From: a virus
Lineage: Duplodnaviria > Caudoviricetes
DNA: 26,239 bases
Virus record (IMG/VR): IMGVR_UViG_3300044615_000441
Span: 1-26,239 of that record
Reading direction: 5' to 3' (one strand)
Shown here: piece by piece, positions 10,165-20,213 of the stretch
Layout of the letters: every line of letters starts with the position of its first letter
How positions within the stretch are numbered: position 1 is the stretch's first letter
Position numbers and translations under genes: made by a program
Notes under the pieces: generated by a model
What the model was told of the DNA's origin: nothing
The model's input: only the letters and a program-made list of their open reading frames with translations
Databases searched by the model: none

Positions 10165-13100
10165 ATGAGTCAATTCGCATCGCTGGTTGCCCCGAGCGGG
10201 GTCCGTTCCTCATCTGGAGGCATGTCGCAGGACGAGATCCAGAAGCCCGACTGGGGTGCCATGGATTACGCCTCGGACGCGGCCCTGGCGATCCCCCGCG
10301 GCCTGCTGGGCGGTGCCTCGGACATCGTGAACCTCGTCGGGCTGCCGTTCGGCGAGCAGGTGGTCGATGACCGCTTCGGCCTCATGGACGAGTCCGAAAG
10401 CATGTTGGGCTCGTTCGTCGAGGGTGCCTCCAGCTTCTCCGTCGGGTTCGCCCTCGGTGGCGGTCTCGGCGTCGGGGCCAAGGCGGCCAAGCTGACCGGG
10501 CTGACCGGGGCGGTGGCCAAGGCCGGCACCTGGGTCGATGACGCGGCCCGGGTCGCCAAGTTCTCGGGCAACGTCGCGAAGGCGGACAGGTACGCCAAGT
10601 ACGGGACCGCCATCCGCAAGGGCGGCAAGTTCATCGAGCAGGGGGTCTTCAACTCCGCGTTCGCCGACTTCGTCTCGTTCGACGGCAACGAACAGCGGCT
10701 GTCCAACCTGGTCGAGTCGTTCCCGTCCTTGCAGAACCCGGTCACCGCCTATCTCGCCGCGGGCGAGGACGACGGGGAGATCGAGGGACGGCTCAAGAAC
10801 ATGCTGGAGGGGCTGTTCATCTCCGGCGGGACCGAAGGACTGTTCAACCTGATTCGGGTCACCCGGGCCGGCTCGCGGGCGAAGGCGGTCGGGCTCGACG
10901 CCGACCGTGCGGTCGCCGAGGAGTACGGCAATATCCGGGTCGAGCAGCGGGAGACCCTGCGGACCATCGCCCCGAACCTGACCGACGACCAGGCCGACGT
11001 CGCCAACCTGCTGATCGACAAGCAGGGACTCGACCGGCGGAAGCTCCTGCTGGCCGGCGAGGACGTGGCCACGGAGATCACCCTGGCCGCGGGTGCCAGC
11101 CCGGTCGGCAAGAAGGGGCTGTCGCACTTCATCCAGGACGGCACGGCAATCGTCGCCCTGTTCTCGAAGGCGGACATCTCGACGGTGGTGCACGAGCTGG
11201 CCCACGTCGCACGCCGGCAACTGCTCGACCCGAGCGTGAGCCCGGCCATCAGCGGGATCTCCGAGGTCGAGCGGCTCATGCTGGAGGACTGGGCCGGAGC
11301 CCGCAACGGGTGGAACGTGGCGGCAGACGAGAAGTACGCCCGGGCCATCGAGCGGTACGTCTACGACGGCAACGCACCGCGTGGCATGGAGCGGACCTTC
11401 CGCTCTCTGACCAACTGGATGCGGAACATCTACCGCGACCTGGAGGGGTCCTCGATCGCCGATGCGGCCCCGAAGCAGGTCAAGGACATCCTCGGGAAGA
11501 TGCTGGACCAGGGACCGGGAGTGAACCCGAAGCTCGCACAGGCGATGGGGGCGTCCCGGGCGGGTGGTGCGGGGACGCTGTTCCAGACGGAAACGCCGGA
11601 GTTCAAGCAGTTCTTCGACGGCAGCAAGGTCGCCGATCCCGAGGGGAAGCCGCTGGTCGTGTATCACGGAACCGCGTCGGTTGTAGATAAGGACGGAAAG
11701 CCTGCCCGGTTCATGTCGCCTGCTTATGGAGACGGATTCGAGGAGTTCTCGGAGTTCCTGCCCAATAGTCACTTCGGCACTGCAAAAGCCGCGCAGCACA
11801 GATACTCAAACCAGAGCCCAACGGCGTACTACGGACAACACACGCCCGGACTTCGCGTCTATCCCGTCTACCTCTCGATCAAGAACCCGCTGCGGGTATC
11901 AGACGCCGCTGCTTCGGAAGAGGCGTCGTTGTTGGGCGAGATCATTCGCTCGCAGAAAGAGGGGAAGCTCACTGAGATCGATCTCGACACGGCGAGGAAT
12001 GAAGGCGCGTACAAAGCGGTTGAAAAGGCGGGATACGACGGGCTTGTCTATAGGAATCTCATTGAAGATCCGGGCAACGACTCTTGGGTCGCCTTCAAGC
12101 CTGAGCAGATCAAGTCCGCCACCGGCAACCGCGGCACCTTCGATCCTGACAACCCGAACATCCTGTTCCAGGACGCCGATCCCGTCCGGGCGATGGAAGA
12201 TGCATTCGGGATCAAGCCCGAGGACGCCACGGCGGAATCGCGGGTTCCCGAAGGATGGCTGGAAACAGGGGGCACTGGTCCGGCACGCAAGGCACAACGC
12301 GGCGTTCGGGCACGCGGCCCCGAATCCATGATGTCGCAGATGGCAATGGGCCTTCGTCTGCGGACGGAGATGACGGCCGAGGACATGGCGTTCGCCACAG
12401 ACCTGATGAACAGGTTCGGCATGGCGAACTTCGAGAACATCGCCATGCGGTTCAAGAAGATGAACGGCCCTGCGGGTCAATACAACTTCTTTCAAGAACT
12501 CTTGACGATTGCCCGAGGCCAGAACAGCGATCACCTGAGAACGACGTTCGTCCACGAGGTCTGGCACGCCATGAGCACCAGGCTGGACGACACCACCGTT
12601 CGCGAGATGATGGAGGACTACAAGAAAGCGGTCAACCGGTGGTCAAAGAAGCTCGGTGTGAAGATCACGGATCTTCGGCTTCCTCCCAATGCGATGCACC
12701 CGAAGGTCAAAAAGGCTTTCGACGCAGGGGAAATTGACTGGAAGACCCTTTATTCGCTCACCAACTTGGACGAGTGGGCCGTCGTAAACCTGACGACAGC
12801 GACCGAGCGACGCCTTGAACTGAGCAAGGACACTGAATCCGTCTTCGGAATGGCCCGCAAGCTCGTGGCTGACATGCTTCTGGCGATCAAGAAAGCATTT
12901 GGCTACGGACGGTACGAGCAGATCGCCAAGGAGTGGGTCGAAGGCACCTATCGGAAGATGCCGGCCATCGAGGTGGCAAGGGCAACCGACATGGAACGAA
13001 GGGCGTTTGACCTGGCGAAAAAGCCCCGGCCAACTTGTGTAACCCTGTTTCAGTCCGAAGACCAGCCACGCCAGCTCGGCACCTTCTACTCCAAGCTCCA

Positions 13101-16100
13101 GCAGACCATCGACTCCGCACCCCAGCGGAAGATGACCGCGGACCAGCTCCGGGGGATGCTGAAGACCGCCGGCGTGAAGGACGAGGAGATGTTCTGGTCG
13201 GGCATCGACGATGTGCTCAAGGCGGGCGGTAAGGTCGATCTCGACGAGGTTCGGGCCCGCATGACCCCGGTGACGGTCACGGAGACCCTGAAGGATCCGG
13301 CGAAGTGGGCGACTTACCAAGCCGAGCGGTTGGTGGTTCCGGGCGGGACGGAGCAACGAGAGTTGCTGTTGAGATTCGGGGGAACGGTTGATCCGGCGGG
13401 GTTTGTCCCGAGGCCGGATGATCCCGAGCGGTTGATCCATCCAGACTTGACAGGGATCGAGATCAGGCGGAACGAGGAGGCTTCTGGCTTCAGCTGGTCC
13501 GTGTACAGGAACGGTGGATATCGGGGTCGATACCTACAGGAACAGGCTGCACGGCTGAAGGCGATCGAAGAAGCCCCGGCACTATTCAAAGGCCCCCACT
13601 GGGACGAGTCGAACGTCCTCGCCCACGTCCGCTTCAACGACCGCACCGGGCCGAACGGCGAGAAGATCCTGTTCATCGAGGAGCTCCAGAGCGACTGGCA
13701 CCAGCAGGGCAGGGAGAAGGGGTACACCAGCGACATGACTGTCGAGTCGCTGGCGGACCGTCTGAAGTTGAACGAAGCGAAAACTGGCTGGATGGGTAGT
13801 CGGCTTGACGTGACTTGGGACGACCCCAGCCGTCCAAATGCGGTGAGCAAGAACTTCTACCCGCAAGACAATTGGCAGCTTTCTAACAAGGAGCGGGAAG
13901 AATGGGAGGCCGGAGGGGATTCGCGGGCAGCTTTAGAGTTGAAGATCAAGCGGCAAATCGCGGAAGCAGAGTTGAAGACTGTCAGGCAAATGATGATCTC
14001 CGACGCCCCCTTCAAGTCCACCGACGCCTGGACCGGGCTGGCGATGAAGCGGATGGTCGCGTGGGCCGCCGAGCGTGGCTACGACGGCATCGCGTGGACG
14101 ACCGGCAAGCAGCAGTCGGATCGGTACCGCAAGCTGCTGGAGGAGAACTTCGACCGGGTTGAGGTGCGGCCTCACAGAACCGACATTGAGGGTGGAACGG
14201 CCATTGTCGTTGGATTCAAGGGTGAGTCGCAGACCTTCAGTCAAGAGTTCGGCCGGAAGCGGCTTCCCGAGGTCCTCGGGAACAAGATGGGCAACGAGGC
14301 CATGGAGCGGCTGACGGCCGGCGAGAAGTCCGTCGTCTTCAAAGGTGACTCGCTTTCGCTCGGCGAGGGGCAGGGCTACAAGGTCCACTACGAGACGATC
14401 CTGCCGAAGCAGCTCAAGGAGATCGGGAAGAAGTTCGGGGCCAGGGTGGGGGAGGTGGACTTCAAAGAGCGAAGCAAGGCTGCCAGCGAAATGAAGGGCA
14501 TGGCAATCGAGGAAAGCTCTATTCCTTCCGAGGATAGGGTGTGGGAAGGAGACAGTCCTGAGCGATGGATGCTTGATGCCTTTAGGTACAAGTTGGACCC
14601 GAACTATGGAGACAAGTATGAGTCTCAGTCTACCTATTTTGAGGCAGACGAGGATGCGGTTGACTTTGCCAAGCAGATCGAGTTCAAGTGGATAAAGCTC
14701 TTCGACGTAAACACCGACGACTCGCCCGTTGCCATGGGGACGATCGACGTGCTGGCTGCGGTCATCACCCATAACGGACGGATGTATGTCAGCGATGCGC
14801 AGTTTGGGAAGTACAGCGATCTCGATTTTGAATCCAGAGGCCTGTCTTTCGCCGAAGTGCAGTCTTTGGACGAGGCCAAGCAACGGCTTAGAGCGGAAGC
14901 TGTTTCCACTTTGGGCGAAGAGGTATTGAAGACGACCAGGCAAGATCTAGGTACCCAGCCCTACTTCCCGCTGACGAAGGAGCTCAAGGAGTCGGTCCTG
15001 TCCAAGGGCCTGCCCCTGTTCCAGGCCGAGGAAAGCCCCTACGCCCGCCAGACCCCGAGCTCGGCTCCCGACCTGGGCAAGCCGGGCGGAGACCCGGACG
15101 CACCGATCAACTGGGGCCGGTTCACCACGGTCGAGGAGACCGCACGGTGGATGGCTTCCCGCCGTCCCGAGGTCAACTACCGCAGCATGACCCGGGAGGA
15201 CTTCATGGCCCGGGCCACCGAGAAGGCCAACGAGCTGGAGGGGATGCTGGAACGGTCCTCGGCCGATGACTTCCGGCGTGCTGTCCAAGGTGGTCACCTC
15301 AGCAACTACGACCTCCAGCAGTTCCTGGAGTTCGCCGAGGGTGTCCGCATCACCGCCTCGCGTTACGCGAGCGATCTGCACGCAAGTGCCAAGCGGATTG
15401 CGACCGGCGGTGCGACCGACGTCGAGCTCGCCAACTTCGTGGCCCTCGAGTCTCGCAGCGATCTCCTACTAGCTGCCACCAAGCAGAACCAGGCCGCCGT
15501 CGCCCGTGCCCTGAACTTCAAGGGCGTCACGATCAACCCGAGGTACAACCGGAACCCCCGACTGTTCCCGGAGCTGCCGACGCCCGGTTCCCGTCCTGCG
15601 GAGACTCCTGCACCGGCACCGATGCCGATGCCCGAGGCGGCCCCGCGTCCCGCCGAGATGCCGGCTCCAGAAGCCGCCCCTCGACCTGCGGAGACGCCCG
15701 CTCCCGAAGCCGCCGCTACTGCACCCGAAGCGGCTGCTCCCCCCGAGGTGGCACCCGCTCCCGAAGCTGTTCCGACTCCCGAGGTCGATCCGCTGACCAA
15801 CCCCGAGGTGGCCGCCCGCATCGCCCGCGAGATCATCGAGATGGCCGGCGGACGCGAGGCGATCCTCGACCGGATCAACCGCATCGTCGAGATCGGCGTC
15901 GCCGACCCGATGCGGACGGTCCGGGCCGCCCGTGAGGCCCGACGGGGCAACCCGCTGGTCGAGTACTGGATGAACTCGATCCTGAGCGGACCGCTGACCC
16001 ACGCGGTCAACCTGACCGCGAACACCCTGACGGCCGTCTACCTGCCGCTGGAGCGAGCCCTCGGCGCCGCCATCATGGGCGACCGGCAGACCGCTGAAGA

Positions 16101-17979
16101 TTCCCTTCGGCAGATCGGGTTCGCCCTGTCCCAGTTCCGCGACGCTTTCGCACTCGCCCGCGAGTCGTTCCGCGACGACCGTCCGATCCTCGACTCGATC
16201 GGCACCCGCGACGACACGAACCAGCGGGCGATCTCGGGTGCCGGGATGCGGCAGTCGCGTCTCTTGCGGCGGGTCGCACCGGCCGAGGGCAGCAGGGCGG
16301 AGGGGATCCTGAACAACATCGGACGGGTCATCAACATCCCGACCCGGTTGTTGCAGGCGGAGGACGAGTTCTTCAAGCAGCTGAACTACCGGGCCGCGTA
16401 CCGGGCCGAGCTGTACTCCGAAGCGATGCGGCGTTTCCCCGGCGATGCCGCCCAGGCCGCCCAGTGGGTCGAGACCACGTTCCAGCGGACCATCCAGGAC
16501 GGGCAGCAGTATGCACAGGGCGTCGTGCTGGCCCGTGCCCAGCAGGCCGCTTCCCGTGCCGTCTCCGACGGCTCGATCGCCCCGGACGGCGTGCCCGAGT
16601 TCGTGGCCCGCTACATGGCGGACACGAACAACTGGGATCCGGCGCTCGGTGCCCTGAGCCGCAGGGCTTTGGAGTTCGCACGCACCGCCACGTTCCAGAC
16701 GCCACTGGAACGGGACTCGGCGAGCTGGTTTAGCCGGGGCGGTTTCCACCTCCAGCGTGCCGCCAACGACCTGCCCGCGTTGCGTTTCCTGTTCCCGTTC
16801 GTCCGCACGCCCACGAACCTCATCAACTTCGCCATCGCCCGCACGCTGCCGGGCAGCATGGTCAACGCCCGCCGGCTGTTCAACCAGACGGCACGGGAAG
16901 CGGCCAACCCGCGGATGCGTGCGGATCTCGCCGGCCGCCTGGCGTTCGCCACCGCATCGACCGGGCTCATCGCGACCTATGCACTGGCGGGAAACATCTC
17001 GGGGAACGGGCCTAAGAACAAGGAAGAGCGGCGGGCCATGGAGCAGGCCGGATGGCAGCCGTACTCGATCCGCGTCGGGGACAAGTGGGTCAGCTACCGC
17101 CGCATGGACCCATTCTCGACGGTCATCGGGCTCGTGGCGGACCTCGTGGAATCCCACCAGTACGACGAGCTACGAAAGGCCGACGAGAACCTGAGCAACG
17201 GCGTCTACACGGTCCTGCTGTCGATCGCCCGGAACATCACGAACAAGTCGTACCTGACCGGAATGACGAACTTCGTCAACGCCTTGAGCAACCCGGACCA
17301 GTATGCGCAGACGGTCGTGAACAACTACGCCGGATCGCTCGTGCCCTTCAGCGGTGCGATGGGGCAGGCCAAGATGGGCGTGGCCGACGACGACGTCATG
17401 CGGGAAGTCCGCACCATGGTGGATGCGGTGCGGAACAAGATCCCCGGACTTGCCGAGGGGCTGGCCCCGCAGCGGAACATCCTCGGGGACCCGGTCAAGC
17501 GGCCCCGTGCCGGTGGGGTCGGGATCGACCTGGTGTCGCCCTTCACCTACACCACGGTCAACTCCGACAAGATCCTCCAGGAGTTCGCCAAGGTCGGCCA
17601 CGGATTCGCCCCTCCCCGCGAGGCCCGGGGGGCGATAGACCTTACGGCATTCAGCCTGTCGTCGGGCCAGCAAGCCTACGACCGCTGGATGGAACTGCAC
17701 GGGGAGGTCCGGATCGGGGGCCGCACCCTGCGGCAATCCCTGGAGCGGCTCATCGCCGATCCCAACTACCAGAAGCTGAGCCCGGCTCCGAGCGACGACT
17801 ACGACTCGCCACGGGTCCGACGGCTCAGGTCCATCATCTCGATGTACCGGGAAGCGGCCTATCGGAAGCTGCTGACCGAGAGCCCCGAGCTGCGCGAGGC
17901 CGAGGGCATCGAGCAGTCGAACCGACGTGCCCTCCGGTCCGGCACCCCGATGGACCAGCTGCAACAACTCGTCCGGTGA
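10165..17979 (+). CDS. Giant internal virion (ejection) protein at the gp16 position; polyvalent protein with two HExxH metallopeptidase-like domains, an ADP-ribosyltransferase-like domain and a further unassigned module
   Basis: 2604 aa between the gp15-like gene and the tail fibre. N-terminal EGRLKNMLEG and C-terminal EYWMNSILSGPLTH, RLLQAEDEFFKQLNYR, FPFVRTPTN and GWQPYSIRVGDKWVSYRRMDPF (LPD38-like region) resemble gp16-position proteins. Internal motifs include HELAH, YHGT...QIKSATGNRGTFDP, HEVWH and IEELQSDWHQ. Confidence 0.85.
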   Translation: MSQFASLVAPSGVRSSSGGMSQDEIQKPDWGAMDYASDAALAIPRGLLGGASDIVNLVGLPFGEQVVDDRFGLMDESESMLGSFVEGASSFSVGFALGGGLGVGAKAAKLTGLTGAVAKAGTWVDDAARVAKFSGNVAKADRYAKYGTAIRKGGKFIEQGVFNSAFADFVSFDGNEQRLSNLVESFPSLQNPVTAYLAAGEDDGEIEGRLKNMLEGLFISGGTEGLFNLIRVTRAGSRAKAVGLDADRAVAEEYGNIRVEQRETLRTIAPNLTDDQADVANLLIDKQGLDRRKLLLAGEDVATEITLAAGASPVGKKGLSHFIQDGTAIVALFSKADISTVVHELAHVARRQLLDPSVSPAISGISEVERLMLEDWAGARNGWNVAADEKYARAIERYVYDGNAPRGMERTFRSLTNWMRNIYRDLEGSSIADAAPKQVKDILGKMLDQGPGVNPKLAQAMGASRAGGAGTLFQTETPEFKQFFDGSKVADPEGKPLVVYHGTASVVDKDGKPARFMSPAYGDGFEEFSEFLPNSHFGTAKAAQHRYSNQSPTAYYGQHTPGLRVYPVYLSIKNPLRVSDAAASEEASLLGEIIRSQKEGKLTEIDLDTARNEGAYKAVEKAGYDGLVYRNLIEDPGNDSWVAFKPEQIKSATGNRGTFDPDNPNILFQDADPVRAMEDAFGIKPEDATAESRVPEGWLETGGTGPARKAQRGVRARGPESMMSQMAMGLRLRTEMTAEDMAFATDLMNRFGMANFENIAMRFKKMNGPAGQYNFFQELLTIARGQNSDHLRTTFVHEVWHAMSTRLDDTTVREMMEDYKKAVNRWSKKLGVKITDLRLPPNAMHPKVKKAFDAGEIDWKTLYSLTNLDEWAVVNLTTATERRLELSKDTESVFGMARKLVADMLLAIKKAFGYGRYEQIAKEWVEGTYRKMPAIEVARATDMERRAFDLAKKPRPTCVTLFQSEDQPRQLGTFYSKLQQTIDSAPQRKMTADQLRGMLKTAGVKDEEMFWSGIDDVLKAGGKVDLDEVRARMTPVTVTETLKDPAKWATYQAERLVVPGGTEQRELLLRFGGTVDPAGFVPRPDDPERLIHPDLTGIEIRRNEEASGFSWSVYRNGGYRGRYLQEQAARLKAIEEAPALFKGPHWDESNVLAHVRFNDRTGPNGEKILFIEELQSDWHQQGREKGYTSDMTVESLADRLKLNEAKTGWMGSRLDVTWDDPSRPNAVSKNFYPQDNWQLSNKEREEWEAGGDSRAALELKIKRQIAEAELKTVRQMMISDAPFKSTDAWTGLAMKRMVAWAAERGYDGIAWTTGKQQSDRYRKLLEENFDRVEVRPHRTDIEGGTAIVVGFKGESQTFSQEFGRKRLPEVLGNKMGNEAMERLTAGEKSVVFKGDSLSLGEGQGYKVHYETILPKQLKEIGKKFGARVGEVDFKERSKAASEMKGMAIEESSIPSEDRVWEGDSPERWMLDAFRYKLDPNYGDKYESQSTYFEADEDAVDFAKQIEFKWIKLFDVNTDDSPVAMGTIDVLAAVITHNGRMYVSDAQFGKYSDLDFESRGLSFAEVQSLDEAKQRLRAEAVSTLGEEVLKTTRQDLGTQPYFPLTKELKESVLSKGLPLFQAEESPYARQTPSSAPDLGKPGGDPDAPINWGRFTTVEETARWMASRRPEVNYRSMTREDFMARATEKANELEGMLERSSADDFRRAVQGGHLSNYDLQQFLEFAEGVRITASRYASDLHASAKRIATGGATDVELANFVALESRSDLLLAATKQNQAAVARALNFKGVTINPRYNRNPRLFPELPTPGSRPAETPAPAPMPMPEAAPRPAEMPAPEAAPRPAETPAPEAAATAPEAAAPPEVAPAPEAVPTPEVDPLTNPEVAARIAREIIEMAGGREAILDRINRIVEIGVADPMRTVRAAREARRGNPLVEYWMNSILSGPLTHAVNLTANTLTAVYLPLERALGAAIMGDRQTAEDSLRQIGFALSQFRDAFALARESFRDDRPILDSIGTRDDTNQRAISGAGMRQSRLLRRVAPAEGSRAEGILNNIGRVINIPTRLLQAEDEFFKQLNYRAAYRAELYSEAMRRFPGDAAQAAQWVETTFQRTIQDGQQYAQGVVLARAQQAASRAVSDGSIAPDGVPEFVARYMADTNNWDPALGALSRRALEFARTATFQTPLERDSASWFSRGGFHLQRAANDLPALRFLFPFVRTPTNLINFAIARTLPGSMVNARRLFNQTAREAANPRMRADLAGRLAFATASTGLIATYALAGNISGNGPKNKEERRAMEQAGWQPYSIRVGDKWVSYRRMDPFSTVIGLVADLVESHQYDELRKADENLSNGVYTVLLSIARNITNKSYLTGMTNFVNALSNPDQYAQTVVNNYAGSLVPFSGAMGQAKMGVADDDVMREVRTMVDAVRNKIPGLAEGLAPQRNILGDPVKRPRAGGVGIDLVSPFTYTTVNSDKILQEFAKVGHGFAPPREARGAIDLTAFSLSSGQQAYDRWMELHGEVRIGGRTLRQSLERLIADPNYQKLSPAPSDDYDSPRVRRLRSIISMYREAAYRKLLTESPELREAEGIEQSNRRALRSGTPMDQLQQLVR
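15592..15792 (+). repeat. Degenerate coding repeat giving a Pro/Ala/Glu-rich linker
   Basis: RPAETPAP...PEAAPRPAEMPAPEAAPRPAETPAPEAA...; 12-aa (36-nt) period in the core, with divergent third codon positions. Confidence 0.8.
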
Positions 17980-19644: not shown

Positions 19645-19995
19645 ATGTCACTGACCACCGTTTCGGCCGCGATGACGAGCGGCCTGTTGCAGACCGCAAA
19701 CAACCTGGCCGAGCTCGCATCGACCAAGACGTCCGCCAGGACGAACATCGGGGTCGATCCCTCGATCCCCCTGGGCACCGTCATGCTGTGGGCCGGATCC
19801 ACCGTGCCGACCGACTGGGTCCAGTGCAACGGCTCGGGGCTGAGCCAGACGACCTACGCAAGCCTGTATGCGGTCGTGGGCAACACCTTCAACACGGGCT
19901 CCCAGGGACCGAACGACTTCCTGGTCCCGAACCTGACGGCGCTGTCCAGCGGCAACGTCAAGTACATCATCAAGACAGGACCCGCGGTGGCGTGA
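19645..19995 (+). CDS. Small tail-collar-domain protein
   Basis: IPLGTVMLWAGSTVPTDWVQCNG...YASLYAVVGNTF...FLVPNL matches the phage tail collar pattern; AGGAG RBS. Confidence 0.85.
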   Translation: MSLTTVSAAMTSGLLQTANNLAELASTKTSARTNIGVDPSIPLGTVMLWAGSTVPTDWVQCNGSGLSQTTYASLYAVVGNTFNTGSQGPNDFLVPNLTALSSGNVKYIIKTGPAVA

Positions 19996-20213
19996 TGACC
20001 GAAGAAATCCTGTTGGCCATCGGGAGGCTCGAGGGCAAGGTCGATGCCATGCTCGGGATGGTCCGGATGCAGGAAGAGCAACTCCGGATGCACGACGAGC
20101 GGATCCGGGAGCTCGAACACTCCAAGGCGTTCCTCATGGGCATCGCGGCCCTCGCGGGCGGTGCCACGTCCACCGGCGTCACATTGATACTCAAACACTT
20201 CGGGAACCACTGA
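19995..20213 (+). CDS. Small coiled-coil protein with C-terminal TM helix (XhlA-like/holin-like)
   Basis: Starts at a TGATG overlap; MTEEILLAIGRLEGKVD...HDERIRELEHSK followed by hydrophobic AFLMGIAALAGG...VTLIL. Confidence 0.65.
   Translation: MTEEILLAIGRLEGKVDAMLGMVRMQEEQLRMHDERIRELEHSKAFLMGIAALAGGATSTGVTLILKHFGNH

What the first reader, a model, noticed from the sequence alone, without database searches (positions are those of the whole stretch)
11578..15024. Same LFQ / CTGTTYCAG motif at all four module junctions: candidate cleavage site or cassette-exchange signal
Seen: GTLFQT (11578, aa 472), NILFQD (12163, aa 667), VTLFQS (13045, aa 961) and LPLFQA (15016, aa 1618). These are the only LFQ tripeptides I found in the protein, and each falls where one motif set ends and the next begins. 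The DNA is CTGTTCCAG three times and CTGTTTCAG once, and each site is followed by a small or acidic stretch. Inference: (a) a protease site making this a polyprotein (the P3-P1 residues match the picornaviral 3C site LFQ, an analogy only), (b) a recombination micro-homology for in-frame cassette shuffling, or (c) a repeated docking or unfolding signal for ejection.
Basis: partly seen in the sequence, partly recalled or inferred. Interest (0 to 1): 0.85.

Follow-up and report, generated by a model that had tools for sequence, protein, structure and literature searches.

The report
LFQ cut-marks in phage ejection polyprotein
A 2,604-residue protein that a T7-like phage likely injects into its host carries the same three-residue tag (LFQ) at all four joints between its modules, and relatives gain and lose modules at that tag, so it likely marks where the protein's own predicted zinc protease cuts it into working pieces, although no cut has been observed.

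Summary
Observation confirmed: four LFQ at aa 472, 667, 961 and 1618 of ORF 10165-17979, the gp16-position protein of a T7-like phage. Each closes a module: zincin MP1, ADP-ribosyltransferase (PF18760), a second zincin, and an unnamed 657-aa module. The count alone is weak (46% of shuffles hold an equally enriched tripeptide); homologues make the case. The ART module ends in xxQ in 44 of 46 proteins carrying an MP1-type zincin, against 8 of 134 without. Two unrelated modules end alike in 58 of 72 proteins (shuffles 27). In six close pairs, 12 of 12 gain/loss breakpoints lie within 16 residues of LxQ. The DNA signal is rejected: CTG 22/31 at sites versus 91/121 before other F/Y codons. Best reading (0.6): LxQ is the self-processing site of MP1, the cut that Iyer et al. 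2017 predicted for polyvalent proteins without naming a site in the parts I read. No cleavage is shown, relatedness is only partly controlled, and 32 proteins bear tags without a recognisable zincin. The scan found the same phenomenon before on other DNA with other tags. New variant of a known kind.

The parts
10165..17979 (+). Gene for a 2604-aa polyvalent protein in the T7 gp16 (internal virion/ejection protein) position
   Evidence: Lies after tail tube, nozzle, T7 gp14-family and a 946-aa ORF, and before a T7 tail-fibre gene; phrog_6651 'internal virion protein' E 3.5e-66 on aa 2196-2597
10165..11061 (+). N-terminal region (aa 1-299), shared with internal virion proteins of T7-like marine phages; borders approximate
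   Evidence: tblastn hits to 'internal virion protein (D)' of Pelagibacter and MedDCM phages over aa 111-275
11113..11514 (+). MP1: zincin-like domain, HELAH at 11191-11205 and downstream Glu389 at 11329; candidate processing protease
   Evidence: H, E, H and the downstream E invariant in 38 of 38 aligned rows; model pLDDT 73 with two strands, HExxH helix and Glu helix; no Pfam hit
11578..11586 (+). LFQ site 1 (aa 472-474), closes MP1 and its linker
   Evidence: equivalent LxQ or LxS after MP1 in relatives
11587..12171 (+). Cargo 1: ART-PolyVal ADP-ribosyltransferase module (aa 475-669, 21.5 kDa)
   Evidence: PF18760 E 3e-19, aa 491-659; mass
12163..12171 (+). LFQ site 2 (aa 667-669), closes the ART module
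12172..13053 (+). Cargo 2: second zincin-like module MP2, HEVWH at 12553-12567 (aa 670-963, 33.5 kDa)
   Evidence: motif in sequence; homologues in gp16 relatives with and without MP1; no Pfam hit
13045..13053 (+). LFQ site 3 (aa 961-963), closes the MP2 module
   Evidence: TLFQS at the same place in L028, L030, L040, L107
13054..15024 (+). Cargo 3: conserved module M3 of unassigned activity (aa 964-1620, 74.4 kDa)
   Evidence: 64-row alignment with conserved motifs at both ends; no significant Pfam, PDB-sequence or Atlas assignment
15016..15024 (+). LFQ site 4 (aa 1618-1620), closes M3 and opens the conserved core
15025..17976 (+). C-terminal gp16-family core (aa 1621-2604, 108 kDa) with a Pro/Ala-rich variable linker near 15592-15767

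Best explanation
LFQ is a protein-level tag that closes each of four modules in the middle of a T7 gp16-type protein, and it is likely the recognition site at which the built-in zincin domain MP1 would cut the likely ejected chain into separate pieces. Shown: the tag marks module ends; relatives gain, lose and reorder modules at it; across polyvalent proteins a Gln-ending tag goes with this zincin type; the DNA under it follows ordinary codon use. Inferred: the protein is packaged and ejected like gp16; MP1 is an active protease; it cuts at or next to LxQ, most plausibly after ejection or late in head maturation, giving N-region+MP1 (50 kDa), ART (21.5), MP2 (33.5), M3 (74) and the core (108). 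A newly arrived module is kept only if it ends in the tag that the resident protease reads, which would explain why unrelated modules end alike within one protein and differently between proteins. The scissile bond is not determined: after Q fits the small residue that usually follows; before L or F would fit the hydrophobic P1' preference of many zincins (recalled).
For: ART ends in xxQ in 44 of 46 MP1-bearing proteins vs 8 of 134 without; M3 in 21 of 22 vs 4 of 61; ART and M3 ends agree in 58 of 72 proteins, shuffle mean 27, max 41 (226 proteins examined). After removing ARTs over 70% identical: 36 of 37 vs 7 of 108. MP1 proteins fall in 12 of 43 C-terminal clusters, and all 4 mixed clusters point the same way; P0220 is the only MP1 protein and the only Q-type in a 31-member cluster. 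gp16 family: 27 L[FY]Q in 15,241 middle-region residues and 0 in 23,616 terminal residues of 20 MP1 proteins (window included), against 3 in 10,007 and 8 in 59,526 for 54 without. 12 of 12 breakpoints within 16 aa of LxQ, null mean 2.2, max 8. Site profile over 93 ends: L 86, variable, Q 89, then S/G/D/N/A 63. Zinc ligands and catalytic Glu invariant in 38 rows. Other zincin clusters go with other tags. Iyer et al. 2017 (PMC5512222, section 8) predict autoproteolysis by such domains and cite processing of P1 DdrB.
Against: No cleavage data. Relatedness is only partly controlled: the ART tree is poorly resolved, with 2 independent pairs on starred branches; in the gp16 family MP1 changes only 3 times on the tree; the second C-terminal cluster is heterogeneous. 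32 of 191 tagged proteins have no HExxH or HExxxH. 4 of 19 MP1 loci have LxS after MP1, and 3 of 17 aligned MP1 have Glu in place of the first His yet keep tags. 8 MP1-less proteins also end in Q. The fold search did not single out zincins (best zincin rows Z 3.5, below unrelated rows). N4 vRNAP, ArdC and TraC1 carry such domains and are delivered full length; the passages seen of the 2026 N4 structure paper report the HExxH motif and no cleavage. Cutting would part the N-terminal region from the core of a protein thought to build the DNA channel (recalled for T7 gp16).
Confidence: 0.6

Rival explanations
1. The tag is bound but not cut: MP1 or another part of the ejection apparatus docks on LxQ to pack, unfold or thread the modules in order.
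For: Explains the pairing with MP1 as well as cleavage does. Three MP1 copies with an altered first zinc ligand keep tags. N4 vRNAP needs its zincin region for encapsidation yet is packaged uncut (PMC5512222).
Against: The catalytic Glu and the other ligands are invariant, more than a pure binding role needs. The L-x-Q-small profile is narrow around one bond.
Confidence: 0.2
2. The tag is cut, but by a host protease or another phage protease; MP1 is co-inherited cargo aimed at host proteins or peptidoglycan.
For: 32 tagged proteins lack a recognisable zincin. Only 26 kb of this genome is held, so a separate protease gene cannot be excluded. The phi24B preprint proposes peptidoglycan degradation for the metallopeptidase of its polyvalent gp47 (untested there).
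Against: Q-tags follow MP1 across different backbones, including a lone switch in a 31-member cluster. Portal fragment, scaffold, capsid, gp14 and the gp15-position ORF hold no [LIMV][FY]Q, unlike a general head-maturation protease. Several zincin-less proteins begin directly with cargo modules, so they may be second halves of split pairs (not tested).
Confidence: 0.13
3. CTGTTYCAG is a DNA signal (micro-homology or recombinase core) for in-frame cassette exchange, and LFQ is only its translation.
For: Breakpoints do fall at the sites. 15 of 31 L[FY]Q sites read CTGTTCCAG, including 4 of 4 in phage LS06-2018-MD07.
Against: CTG at 22 of 31 sites (71%) vs 91 of 121 (75%) for other Leu before Phe/Tyr; CAG 29 observed vs 27.3 expected; 13 different 9-mers. 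One gene has three different 9-mers at three joints (L015). No shared DNA beyond the codons. The middle residue varies freely while L and Q hold. The codon-biased 9-mer may still help insertion incidentally.
Confidence: 0.05
4. Chance, or merely the conserved last residues of each domain.
For: 46% of shuffles hold an equally enriched tripeptide.
Against: The same modules end in FS, KS, FA or FR in other proteins and change together within a protein.
Confidence: 0.02

Closest known systems
Phage polyvalent proteins with zincin-like MPTase domains (Iyer, Burroughs, Anand, de Souza, Aravind 2017, PMC5512222)
   Same: Large virion-cluster protein joining disparate domains, with ART-PolyVal and two HExxH domains; autoproteolytic release of domains predicted there (abstract, passages, sections 8 and 9 read).
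   Different: No cleavage-site or junction motif in the parts read ('linker' 0 hits; 'cleavage site' counted once, passage not shown); its FTP supplements were not seen. Here a concrete tag is tied to one zincin type and to module breakpoints, on a T7 gp16 backbone ('gp16' 0 hits in that paper).
T7 gp16 / internal virion protein D of T7-like phages (phrog_6651)
   Same: Gene position and N- and C-terminal regions.
   Different: Most MP1-less relatives are about 1140-1370 aa with a short middle; here about 1300 aa of zincin and cargo are inserted. T7 gp16 is not known to be cut (recalled).
Coliphage N4 virion RNA polymerase, phage P1 DdrB and crAss-like gp65-gp67 polyproteins
   Same: Ejected or packaged giant proteins with an embedded zincin motif; cleavage proposed for crAss polyproteins (10.1101/2020.03.07.982082, one passage) and reported for DdrB (as cited in PMC5512222).
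   Different: N4 vRNAP is packaged uncut; no RNA polymerase or ParB domain was found here.
Picornavirus 3C and coronavirus main protease polyprotein processing (recalled, not from a call)
   Same: Works like it: one embedded protease and a repeated L-x-Q-small tag at domain borders.
   Different: Those are chymotrypsin-fold cysteine proteases; none was found here. The candidate is a metalloprotease, so the likeness of the tag would be convergence.

Membership tests
Phage polyvalent protein (Iyer 2017) | Several biochemically disparate domains in one large polypeptide | tested here: met
   ART-PolyVal PF18760, two HExxH modules, conserved module M3, gp16-like ends
Phage polyvalent protein (Iyer 2017) | Encoded among virion morphogenesis genes | tested here: met
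   Portal, scaffold, capsid, tube, nozzle and gp14 upstream; tail fibres and terminase downstream
Phage polyvalent protein (Iyer 2017) | Packaged in the virion and delivered with the DNA | not testable with these tools
   Inferred from gene position and phrog_6651
Zincin-like MPTase (MP1) | HExxH helix plus a Glu on a later helix | tested here: met
   H343 E344 H347 E389 invariant in 38 of 38 rows; both on helices in the model; first His is Glu in 3 of 17 rows of the second alignment
Zincin-like MPTase (MP1) | Three-stranded sheet with N-terminal helix; structural match to solved zincins | tested here: inconclusive
   The model of aa 305-480 shows two strands; Foldseek no match at E 0.001 or better; VIA-align zincin rows only Z 3.0-3.5 among unrelated rows
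Zincin-like MPTase (MP1) | Proteolytic activity at the tag | not testable with these tools
   Needs a bench assay
T7 gp16-type ejection protein | Third internal virion gene before the tail fibre, with homologous N and C regions | tested here: met
3C/3C-like protease polyprotein | Embedded chymotrypsin-fold cysteine protease | tested here: not met
   No such Pfam family in the protein or in 18 other window ORFs; the genome held is partial
Prohead-protease maturation (T4 gp21, SPN3US gp245 type) | The same motif in several head proteins, plus a separate protease gene | tested here: not met
   No [LIMV][FY]Q in portal fragment, scaffold, capsid, gp14 or the gp15-position ORF (11 genes scanned); no protease family among 19 ORFs; SPN3US paper seen as listing and start of abstract only
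DNA cassette or recombination site | Nucleotide conservation beyond codon use | tested here: not met

The most novel reading that the evidence does not exclude
DNA phages run a protease-and-tag code on their injected giant proteins: each zincin clade reads its own short tag (LxQ for the MP1 clade), incoming cargo modules have their last residues retailored to the resident tag, and the gp16 DNA-channel protein thereby doubles as a self-processing delivery vehicle whose effectors can be read off the sequence.
Probability: 0.45. Interest if true: 0.82.

Novelty: new variant of a known kind. Interest (0 to 1): 0.64.

Why it matters
Self-processing of phage polyvalent proteins was predicted in 2017, and in the papers I could search no site is named. 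A defined enzyme-site pair (MP1-type zincin, L-x-Q-small) makes the prediction testable with one construct and two point mutants, and in a cultured phage of a harmless host (Caulobacter phage Jess A has this zincin type with an LAQ tag just upstream). The tag also marks exact borders of unnamed cargo modules such as M3, candidates for early anti-defence or host-takeover factors. If confirmed, it is a DNA-phage counterpart of RNA-virus polyprotein processing with an unrelated protease.

Tried and rejected
DNA signal: rejected once codon context was controlled; without that control CTG looked enriched (22 observed vs 13.9 expected). No repeat family links the four junctions. ART tree as a test of independence: Q-ending ARTs are scattered (29 changes on 145 rows) but 77 of 142 branches are unsupported and the automatic domain cut-out is noisy, so little weight. 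gp16 core tree: MP1 is nearly one clade, so the within-family contrast is not independent evidence. M3 folded as a single sequence: pLDDT 40, useless; PDB sequence, Atlas and Pfam gave nothing; a GNAT-like look of one M3 stretch is recalled and untested. MP1 against PDB sequences, Foldseek and VIA-align: no clear match; the Atlas gave unnamed clusters only. The MP1 model rests on 17 sequences; it calls the LFQ stretch a strand but at pLDDT under 50, and no coordinates were available, so it is not used as evidence. Prediction of MP1 with a junction peptide was not available, so binding is untested. MP2 as the LxQ protease: unlikely, since relatives with MP2 but without MP1 lack LxQ at their joints. 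Single-protein locus searches found few relatives (6, 2). Breakpoint test: 6 of the 11 pairs were used; dropped were three too divergent to give clean blocks, one redundant and one partial; the motif pattern was set after seeing the data and the pairs share lineages. Literature: eight searches found no report of the tag; 'LFQ' itself was not searched because it is the common abbreviation of label-free quantification; most subscription papers are outside the library.
Full report
Setting. The window is the morphogenesis block of a T7-like phage: portal, scaffold, capsid, tail tube, nozzle, gp14-family gene, a 946-aa ORF, the 2604-aa ORF 10165-17979, tail fibres and terminase. The held genome is this one contig. 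The big ORF sits in the gp16 position, matches phrog_6651 'internal virion protein' at its C end and internal virion proteins of marine T7-like phages at its N end.

Observation. The four LFQ and their codons are as reported, and they are the only [LIVM][FYW]Q in the protein. The count is not persuasive alone: 46% of 300 shuffles contain a tripeptide as enriched. The anatomy is N region, zincin MP1 (HELAH, aa 343), LFQ, ART-PolyVal (aa 491-659), LFQ, second zincin module MP2 (HEVWH, aa 797), LFQ, conserved module M3, LFQ, C-terminal core. No tag lies between the N region and MP1.

Protein-specific tags. Among 226 proteins (the window's and the best-listed hits of two searches that found 298 and 2387), the ART module ends NILFQ-like in some and DIRFS-, DITKS- or DIRFA-like in others, and M3 ends GLPLFQ, GLPLFS, GLPLFA or GLPLFR. 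These two unrelated modules carry the same residue at the Q position in 58 of 72 proteins that have both; 10,000 shuffles gave mean 27, maximum 41. So the last residues of a module follow the protein it sits in.

Link to one zincin type. With a profile built from MP1, ART ends in Q in 44 of 46 MP1-bearing proteins and 8 of 134 others, M3 in 21 of 22 and 4 of 61. After removing ARTs over 70% identical the counts are 36 of 37 and 7 of 108. MP1 proteins fall in 12 of 43 clusters of C-terminal backbone; in the 4 mixed clusters the Q fraction is 1.0, 0.83, 1.0, 1.0 with MP1 and 0, 0.05, 0.1, 0 without; P0220 is the single MP1 and single Q-type member of a 31-member cluster. Other zincin clusters go with other tags, such as RFSR with an HExxxH group. 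Against: the ART tree is too weak to count independent switches (2 starred pairs), one of the mixed clusters is heterogeneous, and 32 of 191 tagged proteins have no HExxH or HExxxH; some of these start directly with cargo and may be halves of split genes, which I did not test.

Gain and loss. In 20 complete MP1 proteins, the window's included, L[FY]Q occurs 27 times in 15,241 middle residues and never in 23,616 terminal residues; in 54 without MP1, 3 times in 10,007 and 8 in 59,526. L095 is N-MP1-LMQ-X-LLQ-core; L093 adds an ART after LLQ that ends in LYQ; P0003 has the ART one slot earlier, between LFQ and LYQ; L015 and L018 part after ALAQ and rejoin at LFQ/LMQ. In six close pairs all 12 breakpoints lie within 16 residues of LxQ, median 4, against a null mean of 2.2 (6 of 11 pairs used, pattern chosen afterwards, lineages shared). 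MP1 changes only 3 times on the core tree, so this family shows where modules swap but is not an independent test of the MP1 link. Exceptions: after MP1, 11 of 19 loci have LxQ close by, 4 have LYQ further on, and 4 have LxS; three have Glu for the first His. Relatives with MP2 but no MP1 lack LxQ at their joints, so MP2 behaves as cargo here.

DNA or protein. At 31 L[FY]Q sites in 14 genes CTG is used 22 times (71%), against 91 of 121 (75%) for other Leu before Phe or Tyr; CAG 29 times against 27.3 expected; 13 different 9-mers occur. From the window gene's own rates (0.61 and 0.81), four CTG..CAG in four sites has a chance near 0.06. The four junctions share nothing beyond the codons. The signal is in the protein.

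Mechanism. Over 93 module ends in MP1 proteins the profile is hydrophobic, L (86), variable, Q (89), then mostly small or acidic residues. I infer that MP1 cuts at the tag, giving pieces of 50, 21.5, 33.5, 74 and 108 kDa, probably after ejection or late in maturation, since the two gp16-like ends presumably must act together to build the channel (recalled for T7). Short relatives with MP1 and little cargo (L016, L110, L111) keep tags, so a cut between MP1 and the core may be the older role, with cargo added at the same site. Whether the bond cut is after Q or before L/F is open. The chief rival is a binding role without cutting; N4 vRNAP, ArdC and TraC1 are delivered whole despite such domains.

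Literature. PMC5512222 (abstract, passages, sections 8 and 9) defines polyvalent proteins, predicts autoproteolysis and draws the RNA-virus polyprotein analogy, with no site in what I read; its FTP supplements were not seen and could bear on novelty. PMC9503650 (passages) adds nothing on sites. The phi24B preprint 10.64898/2026.04.10.717836 (passages and section 5) finds a polyvalent protein in virions and proposes a peptidoglycan role for its metallopeptidase; its figures and supplements were not seen. PMC13434306 (passages) notes the HExxH motif of N4 vRNAP and mentions no cleavage in those passages. The crAss preprint 10.1101/2020.03.07.982082 (one passage) proposes zincin cleavage of a polyprotein. 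Eight searches found no report of the tag. The 3C and coronavirus protease motifs are recalled. Earlier notes of this scan describe the same pattern with other tags on other DNA; they are unchecked and were read after the tests above; no look-alike of this stretch was on file.

Verdict. The feature is real and belongs to a known class of proteins; the tag and its pairing with one zincin type turn an old prediction into a simple experiment. New variant of a known kind, interest 0.64; self-processing by MP1 0.6.

Noticed in passing
window 16545-16564 and 16886-16905: Perfect 20-nt inverted repeat, arms 321 nt apart, inside the coding sequence of the C-terminal core.
   Followed up: no
window 15592-15767: Pro/Ala-rich tandem repeats in the core; relatives have other low-complexity repeats at this place, such as GAGPGMGP runs in P0006/L015.
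   Followed up: no
L128, L159, L160, L165 (middle of the gp16-like gene): An MP1-less sister lineage seems to use its own junction tag, (F/L)A(D/E/S)(L/M/V/I), with MP2 or another zincin; seen by eye, not counted.
   Followed up: no
L094, L104 (gp16-like gene): A well-supported two-member clade keeps MP1 but has LLxS-type tags at its joints, a possible switch of specificity.
   Followed up: partly
L016, L024, L098 (MP1 domain): First zinc-ligand His replaced by Glu (EExxH); tags are a mix of LxQ and LRS.
   Followed up: partly
P0003, P0008, P0009, P0018, P0019, L095 (middle region): A shared cargo module with motifs FSAATSP, DTxMAR and QERVWG and no Pfam hit; it recalls helix-hairpin-helix DNA glycosylases (recalled, untested).
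   Followed up: no
window 11134-11244 vs L001: 7 of the 12 differences between the window and the near-identical contig L001 over 10165-15600 cluster in the MP1 region; catalytic residues and the four tags are unchanged.
   Followed up: partly
window 19645-20213: A 116-aa tail-collar ORF overlaps a 141-aa ORF in another frame between two tail-fibre genes, a possible frameshift or split gene.
   Followed up: no
L007 (phage BPP-1 bbp10), L010 (Jess A gp39), L009 (LS06-2018-MD07): Named phage records carry the MP1-type zincin with Q-ending tags (FYQ, LAQ, four LFQ), so the pattern can be tested in cultured phages.
   Followed up: partly
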